Shown here in pieces: positions 39,501-45,500 of a stretch of 64,000 nt of DNA. Source of the stretch: Octopus vulgaris (lineage: Eukaryota); NCBI GenBank assembly GCA_951406725.2, contig OX597824.1, forward strand, positions 47,120,001-47,184,000, written 5' to 3'. Under the pieces are notes generated by a model. That model was not told where the DNA came from, searched no databases, and saw only the letters and a program-made list of their open reading frames with translations. Numbering within the stretch: position 1 is the stretch's first letter; each line of letters opens with the position of its first letter. The translations under genes and the position numbers were made by a program.

Positions 39501-42500
39501 TATATATATATATATATATATATATATATATATATATATATATATATATATATATATATATATATATATATATATATATATATATATATATATATATACC
39601 GAAGTAAGCACATAAATGTGAAAGAAGGTAGAAAAAAGAGTACTCAAATACCAGAGGTAGAGTAATATGCTTTATTTAAAAGCAGCAGAAATATAACAAA
39701 AGCTGTTACTCAGAGTTTCACATTCCTGTTCAGTGGACAGTTTTTGTCCGACGAACAGAAATGTGAAACTCCGAGTAACAGCTTTTGTTATATTTCTGCT
39801 GCTTTTAAATAAAGTATATATATGTGGATGCGCAATGGCCCAGTGGTTAGGGCAGCGGACTCATGGCTGTAGGATCGCGATTTTGATTCCCAGACCGGGT
39901 GTTGTGAGTGTTTATTGAGCGAAAACACCTAAAGCTCCACGAGGCTCAGGTAGGTGGTGGTGGCGATCCCTGCTGTACTCTTTCGCCACAACTTCCTCTC
40001 ACTCTTTCTTCTGTTGGTCTGCTCGCTTAGCCAGCGGGGTGGCGTCATTTGAAGGTTAAAACAATGCGAAGCACATTGTGACCAGCGATGTGTAGCAACA
40101 TCTGATAGCCTGGTCGGTCACGGTGATATATATATATATATATATATATATATATATATAAACAGAGAGAGAGACCCAGGAAGATATGGGATGAGGTACT
40201 GAACAATGATCTCAGAAAACTGAACCTTTCAGATGAGATAACAAAGAACCGAGATACCTGGCACCTTGCTGTACTCAAGAAGACCCATCCTCCACAACAG
40301 AAGTGTTAAAGCCACACCTCCTGGTGAACATGATCAGCCTGCAAGAGTCCTGTGCTAATGCAACATAAAAAGAACTCATGCCAGTGCCACATGGTGAGCA
40401 CTCATGCTAGTGCCACATAGGAATGCTCATACTTGTGGCATGTCAAGTGCACCCAGAACACACTGTAAAATGGTTGGCGATAGGAAGGGCATCCAGCAGT
40501 AGAAACCAAGCCAAATCAGAGTGGAACATAGTACAGCTTCCCAGCTCTGGTCAAAGAATGTGATGATGATATATATACATATATATATATATATATATAT
40601 ATATATATATATATATATATATATATATATATATATATATATATATATATATATATATATATATATATATATATATATATATATATATATATATATATAT
40701 ATATATACATATATATATATATGTATATATATATACATGTATATATATATACATATATATATATATATATATATATATGTATATATATACATATATATAC
40801 ATATATATATATGTATATATATATATATATATATGTATATATATATATATATATATATATATATATATATATATATATATATATACATATATATATATAT
40901 ACATATATATATACATATATATACATATATATATATATACATATATATATACATATATATATACATATATATATATATATATATATATATATATATGTTG
41001 TTGTATTTAGGAATGGTCATTTTGCCAGTTTAGCCAATATATATATATATACATATCTTTTATCTTTTACTTGTTTCAGTTATTAGACTGTGGCCATAAT
41101 GGAACACTGCTTTGAGGAATTTTCGTCGAATTGACCTGAGTACTTATTTTCTTTTTAAACCTGGTACCACTAAGTTACAGGGACGTAGACACACCAACAC
41201 TCACTGTCAAGTGGTGATGGAGAACAAACACAAATACAAAGACACACACATACAACAGGCTTCTTTCAGTTTCTGTCAACCAAATCCACTCATAAGGCTT
41301 TGGTTGGCCCAAGTCTATAGTAGAAGACATTTGCTCTCAATAACATGCAATGGGACTGAACTCAGGACCATGTGGTTGGGAAGCAAACTTCTTATCACAC
41401 AATATACACACACACACATACAATAGGGTTCTTTCAGTTTCTGTCAACCAAATTCATGCAGAAGGCTTTGGTCAACCCTGGGTTATATTAAAAGACACTA
41501 ACCCAAAATGTTGCACAGTGGGACTGAACCCAAAACTATGCAGTTTGGGAAATATATTGATGCTATTATGCGAAAATGTCGTAAGACCAAAACGTTGCTT
41601 TTTCAGAAAATGAAAGAATAGTTTTACCATTCCATTTCTTTTTACATTAGCAATGGTTTCAGCTTAACAATAATACTTTGTTGGGTACATAAAATCATAA
41701 CTCCATGCATGTGTGATATTTTCATTCAGAAATACTTTTGCAAAACTGTCATATGTGGAGCTTACTACACTTTTGGAAAATGCTAATCCATTGTACTACA
41801 CTTTGACAATTTTCATCTGAAGCAGCTGGAAACACAATAGTTTGACTAAAAGAACAGGCTATTGCAAGCAAAATTAAATATTGAAAAAAACGCACTTGGT
41901 CAAACTTGAACATATGACAGTTTAACATAATGGCAACAGTATATATCTGTCTGTCTCTCTCTCTCTCTCTCTCTGTTTGTGTGTGTGTGTGTGTGTATTC
42001 ATAAACATACACATACATAGAGAAAGTAAAATTAATTATTTTCTATTTTTTCAATATTTTAGCCAATTCAGTTCCTAAAAATAACTGTTTGCTTTGACAA
42101 TAACTTGAACCTGCCAAACAAGGTGGAATCAACACAAACCCTGAAGTGCTAAATGAAACATCTTATATTATCAAGTGTTTGGGCCTTTTGAGTCTAAATT
42201 CCAAACATTGTTTAATCTGCTAACTGAATTAGCTAACTAGTCCAGGTCAGACACTTCTCAAATCACCTTTCCTGCATATTATAATCAAAACACTTTCTTC
42301 AATATTTATAAAAGGGCTGATATTACAATTATCATCCCTCTCTCTCTTTCGGAGAGGCACAAGCACCTACACGCACATATACACACACGGCAGTAACTAC
42401 CACCTACCGAATTCAATCACAAAGCTCTGGTTAGCTCGGGGCTATAGTGAAAGACACCTACCCAAAGTGCCACGCAGTGGGACTGAACCCGAAACCATGT

Positions 42501-45500
42501 AGCTAGGAAGCAAGCTCCCTAACCACACAGCCATGCCCATCATTTATTTTTCTATTGGTTTGCTAATCATAGGCTTTCAATTTGATTTGCAGTGAATTCT
42601 AACTCACAGCAAGTAAAATTGAAAGCATATAGATAAGCAAGATAAAACAAGTAGAACCCCTTCAAGCAACAGTTGTCTCTAGTTCTATAATACAATATTG
42701 AGAAAACACAGCTTTATCATAATAAATTTGTACTTATGAATATTTTAGGCTAAGTTAAAAATGAGGCTATTTATTCCATAATTGCAACAGATAGATGTTG
42801 CATAATAAAGAAGCATAATTGCATAATTAAGAAGCTTGCTTTGCAACCACATCATTTGGGGTTTAGTCCTTCTATACAGCACCTTGGGCAGGTCCCTTCA
42901 ACTAAGACTCTGGGCTGAGCAATGTTGTGAAAGTGGAATTCACAGACAAAAACTATATGAAAGTCTGTCATATATATATATATATATATATATATATATA
43001 TATATATACCGGAGTAAACACATAAATGTGAAACAAGGTGGAAAAAAGAGTACTCAAATACCAGTGGTAGAGTAATATGCTTTATTTTAAGCAGCAGAAA
43101 ATTCAACAAAATCTGTTACTCTGAGTTTCTCGTTGCCGTTCATCAGACAGTTTTTGCTAGAATGGAACTTATATATTAATTCAATCTATACTCTTACAAA
43201 CGCTACACCTTTAAAAAGAAATGGACTTGTTTGATTGGCCCTTAAGAAAAAACGGTCAATCTTCGAGCGATAAACAAAAAGGTCAAAAATATATGTATAT
43301 ATATATAAAAAAACTTATAAAAATTATAAAATCCGAGGAAAAAACCGAGGAAAAAAACCTATTGCCGTTAATGAAGACACTACAAATTAATGCATAGAAA
43401 TTAAACCTGTTATAAATACTGCAATACATATTTATATTAAAATCCACATATATATATCAACATACACAAAAGGATGCGCGTAAACGCCATACATACATAT
43501 ACAGACGTAAGATTACCTTGATTATTTATATTACCTTGATTATTTATAAATGACCCAAAATAGGATGTTATATTTTATTTTATATGTCTTTCGTATATAT
43601 TTTTATTAATGCACCCATTTTTTAAAAGCAATGTTTTTTTTAAAAAAAAGCAATGTTGTCAAATTTAGAATGTTTATATAAGTTTGTGTATAGCAAAGCG
43701 TATGTATTTGTAAGCATGCGTATCTGTGTATGTCTAAGTGAAAGTATGCTTGTGCTTAAGCACGCATACACACGACGGTATGTATATGTATCAATTCAAA
43801 CTTGTGTATGTATACTGGCCTCTATAGATGCCAATAACATCGCTACAAGTTTTTTTCCCCACCCCTCCTTCGTTCCTTTTTCTCTCTTTCCCTTTCTTTC
43901 GTTCCCCCTCCTTGCTCAGTATATGAGAATTGCTACATAGATGAATTTTAGCTTGCGTGCGAGATGGTTTGCGTGAATATATGTACACATGCTTTTATGT
44001 GTATAATTTAGATTCATATTCATACGTCTGTATATGTATGTATGGCGTTTACGCGCATCCTTTTGTGTATGTTGATATATATATGTGGATTTTAATATAA
44101 ATATGTATTGCAGTATTTATAACAGGTTTAATTTCTATGCATTAATTTGTACTGTCTTCATTAACGGCAATAGGTTTTTTCCTCGGTTTTTTCCTCGGAT
44201 TTTATAATTTTTATAAGTTTTTTTATATATATATACATATATTTTTGACCTTTTTGTTTATCGCTCGAAGATTGACCGTTTTTTCTAAAGGGCCAATCAA
44301 ACAAGTCCATTTCTTTTTAAAGGTGTAGCGTTTGTAAGAGTATAGATTGAATTAATATATAAGTTCCATTTCTAGCAAAAACTGTCTGATGAACGGCAAC
44401 AAGAAACTCAGAGTAACAGATTTTGTTGAATTTTCTGCTGCTTAAAATAAAGTATATATATATATATATATATATATATATGCTAGCTATTTTGACCCGT
44501 GCTTCGCTCGGGTTTTGGTGGTAGTGGTGTTGTTTTGTGCGTGTTGTCTCCTTTTGTTTGTCTTATTTGCCTGGTTCTTTTTATTGCCCACTTTCCAAAT
44601 TCCCAATTTTTACACCCACAATTAAAGATAACTGCCTCTAGCCCCTGCAGCAACATGAAAAGCCACCATTATTCAAACAGCACAACCTGTCTAACCCATA
44701 AAACTCAATTTTTCCCATATTCCTCACCATGGCAACCAAACGGTAGCCCCGAGTGACTTGCAACCCTCGTCACACCATTGCCCACCCCATTTTACCCCCA
44801 GTGTAAATTTTGGCACCAATCTGACCCTACCTACCACCCCTTAAACCGTTCCCATCCCAAAATGAGACAAATAACCAAAAAATAAAACAACTTTTTCGCA
44901 TTTCAGCTTTATATATATATATATATATATATATATATATATCTTTTACCTTTTATCTTGTTTCAGTCATTAGACTGTGACTATACAGGGGCACTGCTTT
45001 GAAGAACTTTTTAGTTAAATGAATCGACCCTAGTACTTATTTTTTGTGAAGCCTAGTACTTATTTAATCAGTTTCTTTTTGCCAAACCACTAATACATAG
45101 GGACATAAACACACCAACATTGATTGTAGTGGTGATGGGAAACAAACACAGACACAAAGACACATACATAGATACATATATATATATGTACATATATACA
45201 ACGGACTTCTTTCATTTTTATGTCTACCTAATCCACTCACAAGTCTTTGGTCAGCCCAATTCTACAGTAGAAGACACTTGCCAAGGTGCCATGCAGTGGG
45301 ACTGAGCCCAGAACCATGTAGTTGAGAAGCAAGCTTCTTACCACACAGCTATGCCTGGGCTTCATCATCATTTAACATCTGCTTTCCATGCTGGCATAGG
45401 TTAGACAGTTTGACTGCAGTCTGATTTAGCATGATTTCTATGGCTGGATGCCCTTCCTATCACCAACCACTTGAGAGTTTAATGGGTGCTTTATGCATGC

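What the first reader, a model, noticed from the sequence alone, without database searches (positions are those of the whole stretch)
39599..44452. (TA)n-targeted fold-back elements carrying hammerhead ribozymes on both strands (Penelope-like system)
Seen: two separate insertions (39599-39814 and 43009-44452) share one plan: (TA)n, a ~70-nt single-copy tail, arm, spacer, inverted arm, (TA)n. Both inverted arms stop at the same base (...AAATAAAG) although arm lengths are 70 vs 430 bp. Each arm holds CTGT-CTGAYGA-ACR GNRA YGT-GAA-ACTC N GAGT-A-ACAG. All stem II loops are GNRA (GAAA, GGAA, GCAA). Established: minimal type I hammerheads with palindromic stem III (active as dimers), inverted pseudo-LTRs and a unique 3' tail are hallmarks of Penelope-like elements, some of which target microsatellites. 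Inference: this is a truncated or non-autonomous cephalopod PLE family. The - strand copy at 43113-43150 has an intact core and is sense within CWF19L1 pre-mRNA. Caveat: the A-T/G-C covariation in stem II could be CpG decay, and every copy here has at least one defect.
Basis: partly seen in the sequence, partly recalled or inferred. Interest (0 to 1): 0.8.

Follow-up and report, generated by a model that had tools for sequence, protein, structure and literature searches.

The report
Octopus Penelope-like retroelement end pairs
These are short dead copies of a common octopus jumping gene of the known Penelope-like kind, inserted as back-to-back pairs with a partly decayed self-cutting RNA motif, and their layout hints that both strands of the target DNA start a copy at once.

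Summary
The layout is real: two insertions in (TA)n inside an Octopus CWF19L1 intron, each with a 71-nt tail at one end, inverted arms and a shared tail-less end. The hammerhead motif was overstated: the core is intact in 2 of 4 arms, and both of those lack the first stem II pair. The family is high-copy in six organisms. Its hammerhead matches that of Hydra-clade Penelope-like elements (PLEs), and a coral-type Hydra PLE linked to an endonuclease ORF shows the same plan. No ORF was found here, so clade membership is not shown. Contigs from two organisms show that the spacer continues the tail-less arm. The long element is therefore two 5'-truncated copies joined head to head, which a simple fold-back does not explain. 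Best reading: both nicked target strands prime reverse transcription at two fixed RNA sites. Fold-back followed by deletion remains a rival. In the host pre-mRNA the hammerhead would be locked in a long hairpin. The scan reported similar PLE palindromes before, in shark and fish DNA. Verdict: new member of a known kind.

The parts
39599..39669 (-). E1 tail, 71 nt, present once; 3' end of the element, joined to (TA)n; begins with a predicted bulged hairpin
39670..39746 (-). E1 tail-bearing copy: AATAAA-containing stretch and minimal hammerhead 39703-39740 with damaged core (CCACTGA); 5' end about 6 nt upstream of stem I
39745..39814 (+). E1 tail-less copy: starts inside stem I, hammerhead core CCGACGA (U4C), ends at AAATAAAG against a short (TA)n; shares TG with the other copy at the junction
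43009..43079 (-). E2 tail, 71 nt, joined to (TA)n; predicted bulged hairpin starting 5 nt after the tail-less end
43080..43509 (-). E2 tail-bearing copy (shorter one, 501 bp with tail); hammerhead 43113-43150 with intact core and A.A at 10.1-11.1; 5'-truncated at 43509
43508..44452 (+). E2 tail-less copy (longer one, 945 bp): the 'spacer' plus the right arm are one continuous piece of the family; hammerhead 44382-44419 with intact core and broken stem II; 2-nt TA overlap at the head-to-head junction
   Evidence: (record 30 of X8; loose ends before 43508 in X8 and X5)
39374..39598 (.). (TA)n target array left of E1
42970..43008 (.). (TA)n target array left of E2
44453..44481 (.). (TA)n target array right of E2
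39175..48076 (-). Host intron of CWF19L1 that holds both elements (bounds approximate, from tblastn exon hits)

Best explanation
E1 and E2 are insertions of the 3' end of a high-copy octopus PLE family that resembles the Hydra clade (identity as PLE about 0.9; Hydra clade about 0.75). Mechanism, inferred: a PLE reverse transcriptase/GIY-YIG protein nicks both strands of a (TA)n array, and each nick primes its own cDNA on the element RNA. One starts at the far end of the tail. The other starts 71 nt upstream, right after AAATAAAG, where the RNA (CAUAU) partly matches the TA primer and a bulged hairpin begins 5 nt further on. Both cDNAs stop early, often at the 5' edge of the hammerhead, and their ends are joined head to head through 2-nt overlaps. 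This gives a tail at one end only, a fixed tail-less end, and arms of unequal length in which either copy can be the longer. The two arms of one element share a haplotype, as expected if both copied one RNA (the second cDNA displacing the first, PLE ORFs having no RNase H; recalled) or RNAs of one source locus. The hammerhead is a dimer-type minimal motif, weak or dead in many copies, and in a host pre-mRNA it is paired with its antisense arm, so it is unlikely to cut CWF19L1 transcripts.
For: Shown: shared plan and ends. High copy: 20 of 24 listed runs hold half or more of the words, 6 organism codes, 11 studies. Fixed tail-less end beyond this window: loose ends at 43075 are (TA)n in 30 contigs of X1 and 40 of X5 (24 of 575 rows shown). 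Spacer continues the tail-less arm: an 1102-nt X8 contig runs arm, then spacer reversed, then 388 nt of new sequence past 43508, and X5 shows the same continuation. Hammerhead stem I, core, stem III and cut site equal those of Hydra-2_aMil, a (TA)n-targeting PLE (PMC8557442 File S2). Coral-type Hydra-2 copies fetched here carry the motif 130-156 nt behind an ORF end homologous to a GIY-YIG-bearing PLE protein. L019 has a short tail-bearing copy head to head with a long tail-less copy; L020 is a tail-less copy with no inverted partner found; L021 has a 5' part inverted with no duplication, breakpoints 475/477, the pattern known as twin priming in L1 (recalled). In vitro, the anole PLE nicks and extends both strands and starts at two sites that bound the tail (PMC11167929). 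Three of 11 listed joints change strand at 43152-43154, beside stem I, and summed depth falls 3.8-7.6 fold just upstream of the hammerhead in the three DNA-type runs.
Against: No ORF linked: 0 hits of 121 PLE proteins within E2, and about 870 nt upstream of the hammerhead are non-coding, against 130-156 nt in the coral element. The asymmetry rests on one octopus locus and one coral locus; a later deletion in a fold-back could give it. E1 fits fold-back equally well. The three joints are one contig each and the table does not give their polarity. The depth drop could come from subfamilies that share only the 3' module. Tail similarity to coral is not significant by sequence alone: 40, 96, 240, 196 of 1000 shuffles and 58, 175 of 1000. 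PMC11167929 reports starts without homology to the target, whereas this proximal start has TA microhomology. Arkhipova et al. read head-to-head palindromes as self-priming (PMC3846280).
Confidence: 0.6

Rival explanations
1. Same PLE family, but the inverted arm is made by fold-back: one cDNA starts at the tail end, primes on itself, and the second strand is cut or stops at AAATAAAG. E2's asymmetry then comes from a later deletion across the centre of the palindrome.
For: E1 is a near-perfect hairpin with a few unpaired central bases. Arms share a haplotype at 10 of 13 family-variable sites checked in E2, the other 3 being differences between the arms. Self-priming and endonuclease resolution of the tail are proposed in PMC3846280 and PMC8557442. 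A 2-nt overlap also fits deletion repair.
Against: Needs a deletion in both E2 and L019 that leaves the tail-less copy longer; L019's junction has 3 untemplated bases. A tail-less copy without partner (L020) and the non-duplicated inversion (L021) show the tail-less end as a primary start in the coral relative.
Confidence: 0.27
2. The family belongs to another PLE clade (Neptune, Penelope/Poseidon) or is a non-autonomous derivative mobilised in trans; the match to Hydra-2 is limited to a short motif. This concerns clade, not mechanism.
For: No ORF found; long non-coding upstream part; Neptune also targets microsatellites (PMC8557442); the described octopus Hydra-1_oBim has a different hammerhead; hammerheads of other clades were not compared.
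Against: Exact match of stem I, core, stem III and cut site, similar spacing to the tail-less end (30-31 vs 33 nt) and the same hairpin position.
Confidence: 0.25
3. A MITE or foldback DNA transposon that inserts at TA and carries a hammerhead by chance or capture.
For: Inverted arms, TA flanks, high copy number; Tc1/mariner relics occur in the window.
Against: The inverted repeat is not terminal (71-nt tail outside one arm); arm lengths differ 70 vs 430 bp; depth falls away from the 3' end; the coral counterpart is linked to a PLE ORF.
Confidence: 0.03
4. A non-LTR retrozyme (tandem hammerhead repeat spreading through circular RNA).
For: Type I hammerhead, no ORF; retrozymes are proposed PLE derivatives (bioRxiv 10.64898/2026.07.22.740005).
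Against: Retrozymes are direct tandem repeats of 150-450 bp (PMC7229834); here copies are inverted, truncated and over 945 bp. One joint (43090 back to 43003) in X1 and X5 is the only tandem-like sign.
Confidence: 0.04

Closest known systems
Hydra clade of C-terminal EN+ Penelope-like elements, especially Hydra-2_Amil (Craig et al. 2021, PMC8557442)
   Same: (TA)n insertion; same stem I, core, palindromic stem III and cut site; tail-less end about 30-33 nt after stem I; bulged hairpin at the start of the tail; inverted 5'-truncated partner (also noted for Penelope-13_HM).
   Different: 3-bp stem II with GNRA loop and A at 10.1; frequent U4C; at least 870 nt non-coding upstream; no ORF seen.
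Hydra-1_Obim (Octopus bimaculoides Hydra PLE, same paper)
   Same: Genus, clade-type hammerhead, (TA)n preference, fixed termination site.
   Different: Different stems I-III and 3' end; two 15-nt tail motifs found 0 times in the supplement. Not the same family.
Poseidon of Anolis carolinensis (PAc; Frangieh et al. 2024, PMC11167929)
   Same: Tail bounded by two start sites; AT-rich target; hammerhead upstream of the tail.
   Different: Tail 30-40 nt there, 71 nt here; ORF starts in the hammerhead there, whereas here all frames through hammerhead and tail are closed by stops; that paper does not address inverted pairs.
Minimal type I hammerheads of metazoan PLEs (Cervera and De la Pena 2014, PMC4209133)
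   Same: Short helix I, palindromic helix III needing a dimer, dual motifs on opposite strands 100-700 bp apart, high variability.
   Different: G10.1-C11.1, called highly conserved there, is absent in all four arms.
L1 twin priming (recalled)
   Same: Both target strands prime cDNA; head-to-head join with short overlaps; L021 shows the classic form.
   Different: Here the second start is a fixed site and the copied stretch is duplicated as an inverted repeat.

Membership tests
Penelope-like element (EN+) | ORF with PLE-type RT and GIY-YIG endonuclease | tested here: inconclusive
   No hit of 121 PLE proteins in E2; copies are 5'-truncated; no genome held
Penelope-like element (EN+) | Minimal type I hammerhead near the 3' end | tested here: met
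   matches File S2 of PMC8557442
Penelope-like element (EN+) | [quoted passage not shown] | tested here: met
   71 nt in both elements; longer than the 30-40 nt usually given
Penelope-like element (EN+) | Inverted 5'-truncated copy joined at the 5' end | tested here: met
Penelope-like element (EN+) | Direct partial tandem (pLTR-ORF-pLTR) | not testable with these tools
   No full-length copy reachable
Hydra clade PLE | RT phylogeny and RWK, DKT, CxCX5C motifs, no CCHH | not testable with these tools
   No ORF of this family in hand; filed as Hydra-like only
Hydra clade PLE | Insertion into (TA)n | tested here: met
   4 of 4 flanks here; loose ends in 30 + 40 contigs. The window is rich in TA arrays (27 matches of 20 nt or more)
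Hydra clade PLE | Hammerhead layout as in Hydra families | tested here: met
   other clades not compared
Hydra-1_Obim family | Same hammerhead and 3' sequence | tested here: not met
   (compared by eye and by motif search)
Active type I hammerhead ribozyme | Core CUGANGA ... GAAA ... UH | tested here: inconclusive
   Met in 2 of 4 arms; U4C in 57%, 31%, 20% of summed depth in X1, X5, X19
Active type I hammerhead ribozyme | Pair at 10.1-11.1 closing stem II | tested here: inconclusive
   A-U in the 2 arms with broken core, A.A in the 2 with intact core; U at 11.1 in 16-24% of depth; U.U is common there in Hydra motifs
Active type I hammerhead ribozyme | Self-cleavage | not testable with these tools
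   Needs an in vitro assay; no Rfam match
Non-LTR retrozyme | Direct tandem repeats of 150-450 bp each with a hammerhead | tested here: not met
MITE / foldback DNA transposon | Inverted repeats at both termini | tested here: not met
   Tail lies outside the repeat at one end

The most novel reading that the evidence does not exclude
The inverted pLTR and one-sided tail of PLE insertions are made by programmed twin priming: both target strands prime cDNA, at two fixed RNA sites set by a small bulged hairpin conserved from coral to octopus, and the cDNAs are joined head to head. The hammerhead fold acts as a stop or RNA 5' boundary more than as a cutter, which would let a very successful family drift to U4C and an unpaired 10.1-11.1. 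High-copy octopus pairs would let this be tested by counting.
Probability: 0.35. Interest if true: 0.65.

Novelty: new member of a known kind. Interest (0 to 1): 0.4.

Why it matters
The element type is known, and PLEs already make up 6.83% of the O. vulgaris genome in 190 families (PMC13282606 supplement). The value is mechanistic. How PLEs form inverted repeats and tails is named as open in PMC8557442. A family with fixed ends and very many copies lets twin priming and fold-back be told apart from genome data alone. It also offers natural hammerhead core variants for testing whether cleavage matters, and long intronic hairpins that could be RNA-editing substrates in octopus.

Tried and rejected
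Rfam: no hammerhead among 68 weak matches. Metagenome scans: 0 hits; 18 hits, all chance 18-29 nt matches. Viral scan: 9 hits without stem I or (TA)n, treated as chance. Protein search with a coral Hydra-type ORF: 120 of 3727 hits listed, none named Octopus, most unnamed. No PLE ORF remnant in E2; best window hits were weak matches to a LINE RT. The 98-aa frame 43644-43940 has no Pfam match. No RNA holder listed; X19 is RNA by guess only, and contig depth says nothing on expression. The strand-switch joint 43501/44030 was not used as evidence by itself, since this locus would give it too; only the continuation past 43508 was used. Tail sequence homology to coral: six shuffle tests, one at 40 of 1000 and five weaker; kept as a hint. 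The whole-module alignments (0 and 1 of 1000) include the search pattern and are circular. Monomer folds did not give the hammerhead; octopus dimer folds paired through stem III. Earlier-findings look-ups by sequence and by place were empty. Not-in-print check: searches listed no paper on this family or on twin priming in PLEs (listings only for most); Repbase, Dfam and subscription papers could not be searched, so the family may already be catalogued. Sequences in the Craig supplement were compared by eye and motif search only.
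Full report
Observation. E1 (39599-39814) and E2 (43009-44452) are as described in layout. Each has (TA)n, a 71-nt tail, an arm, and an inverted arm that ends at AAATAAAG against (TA)n. BLAST found no third copy in the window. 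The 17-nt stem III/stem I motif occurs 4 times, all exact, against 0.04 expected. The host is Octopus: an exon peptide is 96% identical to O. sinensis CWF19L1, and both elements lie in one intron of this - strand gene.

Hammerhead. The four arms read: E2- CTGATGA with stem II ACG/CGA; E2+ CTGATGA with ACG/CAA; E1- CCACTGA with ACA/TGT; E1+ CCGACGA with ACA/TGT. Stem III is the palindrome ACTC-N-GAGT in all four, and octopus dimer folds pair through it. No arm has both an intact core and a paired 10.1-11.1. This is not just local decay. In contigs of other runs, C at position 4 holds 57%, 31% and 20% of summed depth (X1, X5, X19), and U at 11.1 only 16-24%. These shares are rough, because contig depth is flat and contigs break at variable sites. 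U4C lowers activity in vitro but is tolerated in a viroid (PMC3088659, passage). U.U at 10.1-11.1 is common in Hydra-clade motifs, so a mismatch there is not proof of death. Metazoan PLE hammerheads cleave weakly and only as dimers (PMC4209133, parts 1-2 of 4). In CWF19L1 pre-mRNA each motif faces its antisense copy; E1 folds into a hairpin of -106 kcal/mol. Cleavage of the host transcript is therefore unlikely (inference).

A repeat family. 20 of 24 listed runs hold half or more of E2's words; they cover 6 organism codes and 11 studies. Four runs were laid on 43003-44030. Summed depth in X1 is 0.8-2.3 million over tail and hammerhead, against 10-90 for single listed contigs. That suggests on the order of ten thousand copies (inference; the tool says depth is no copy number). 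Depth falls 7.6, 3.9 and 3.8 fold just upstream of the hammerhead in X1, X5 and X8. Loose ends at 43075 are (TA)n in 30 contigs of X1 and 40 of X5, so the tail-less end is fixed across the family (24 of 575 loose-end rows were shown).

The spacer. An 1102-nt contig of X8 reads along the arm, then through the spacer in reverse from 44030 to 43508, then 388 nt of sequence absent from the stretch. X5, another organism, shows the same continuation past 43508. A contig of this locus would have returned into the left arm there. So the spacer is the upstream part of the tail-less copy. E2 is a 501-bp tail-bearing copy (43009-43509) joined head to head to a 945-bp tail-less copy (43508-44452), with a 2-nt TA overlap. 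A single cDNA that starts at the tail and folds back cannot give a longer tail-less copy without a later deletion.

Relatives. File S2 of Craig et al. 2021 (PMC8557442; passages, section 11, supplement parts 2, 52, 53 of 59) lists Hydra-2_aMil with the same stem I, core, stem III and cut site; nearly all Hydra families insert in (TA)n. The octopus family in that paper, Hydra-1_Obim, has another hammerhead. A pattern scan of genome contigs returned 3 loci of eukaryotic, coral-type DNA in one MAG that carry the Hydra-2_aMil motif. There it lies 130-156 nt behind an ORF end that is 49% identical over 124 aa to a neighbouring PLE protein with a weak GIY-YIG match. L019 repeats E2's plan: a short tail-bearing copy starting about 11 nt before stem I, head to head with a 602-bp tail-less copy ending in (TA)n, with 3 untemplated bases between. 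L020 is a tail-less copy ending in (TTA)n, with no inverted partner found. L021 has the 5' part inverted with breakpoints at 475 and 477 of the intact copy and no duplication. The tail-less ends of coral and octopus copies align within a few columns and lie 5 nt before a bulged hairpin in both (z -1.8, -2.1, -2.8; 28, 18, 8 of 500 shuffles). Tail sequence similarity alone is weak.

Mechanism. Shown elsewhere: the anole PLE protein nicks and extends both strands, is predicted to be a dimer, starts at two RNA sites that bound the tail, and does not need hammerhead cleavage in vitro (PMC11167929, parts 1-2 of 4). Shown here: fixed tail-less end, longer tail-less copy in 2 of 3 pairs examined (E2, L019; E1 is nearly symmetric), short junction overlaps, and one classic inversion in the coral relative. 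Inferred: both nicks prime a cDNA, one at each start, and the two are joined at their truncated ends. E2's arms agree at 10 of 13 family-variable sites checked and E1's arms share another haplotype, which fits one template RNA or one source locus; later gene conversion or a single active subfamily would also fit. 5' ends seem to gather at stem I: both E1 copies, the L019 short copy, and 3 of 11 listed joints at 43152-43154 (one contig each). Earlier scan notes report the same clustering in shark and fish DNA; these are unchecked notes, not support. The rival is fold-back with endonuclease resolution, close to the self-priming reading of Arkhipova et al. 2013 (PMC3846280, passages), plus a later central deletion. 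I put twin priming at about 0.6 and fold-back at about 0.27.

Against membership. No ORF was found: none of 121 PLE proteins hit E2, while 120 hit the coral control. About 870 nt upstream of the hammerhead are non-coding. The family has either a long 3' region or no ORF. It works like a Hydra-type PLE end; membership of that clade is not shown.

Novelty. Hammerhead, tail, inverted truncated copy and (TA)n targeting are all in print. PLEs are abundant and partly young in O. vulgaris (PMC13282606, passages and supplement search). Retrozymes differ in being direct tandems (PMC7229834, passages; bioRxiv 10.64898/2026.07.22.740005, part 1 of 5; its supplements are closed). Six paper searches listed nothing on this family or on twin priming in PLEs; Repbase and Dfam were not searchable. 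Verdict: a new member of a known kind, with a useful and testable clue to how PLE inverted repeats form. Interest 0.4.

Noticed in passing
window 43102: T>C (A>G on the element's sense strand) holds 22% of depth in X19 (RNA by guess, 16 contigs) against 0.02% in X1 and X5. A hint of A-to-I editing of the hairpin; needs DNA and RNA of one animal.
   Followed up: partly
window 43850-43920: A long pyrimidine tract ending in CAG on the element's sense strand; looks like a 3' splice site, and PLEs are known to keep introns.
   Followed up: no
window 39670-39740 vs 39745-39814: All 5 substitutions between E1's arms fall in the 38-nt hammerhead, none in the 33 nt after it; the - arm has lost the CpGs that the + arm keeps.
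   Followed up: partly
window 43009-44452: CpG observed/expected is 1.13 in E2 against 0.39 in the intron and 0.42 in the window, consistent with a young insertion.
   Followed up: partly
window 29460-27041 (- strand): A CWF19L1 exon (29442-29323) runs in frame, without a stop, into a LINE-type ORF remnant; a second frame holds an RT.
   Followed up: partly
window 2501-3650, 36173-36949, 61611-62081, 971-1450: Decayed mariner, pogo/DDE_1 and Tc1 transposases and an RT fragment.
   Followed up: partly
window 39825-40125: GC-richer segment right of E1 that looks like a tRNA-derived SINE (recalled resemblance); ARAGORN finds no tRNA.
   Followed up: partly
window 44482-44520: Right flank of E2 resembles a Helitron-like end (recalled resemblance, untested).
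   Followed up: no
L019-L021 (contigs CBDDTI010000061.1, CBDDTI010000225.1): A bacterial MAG in the genome collection holds animal DNA with clustered PLEs of two types, some with long RT/GIY-YIG ORFs: contamination of the assembly.
   Followed up: yes
joint 43090 to 43003: One contig each in X1 and X5 goes back 88 nt, a possible short tandem of the tail region.
   Followed up: no
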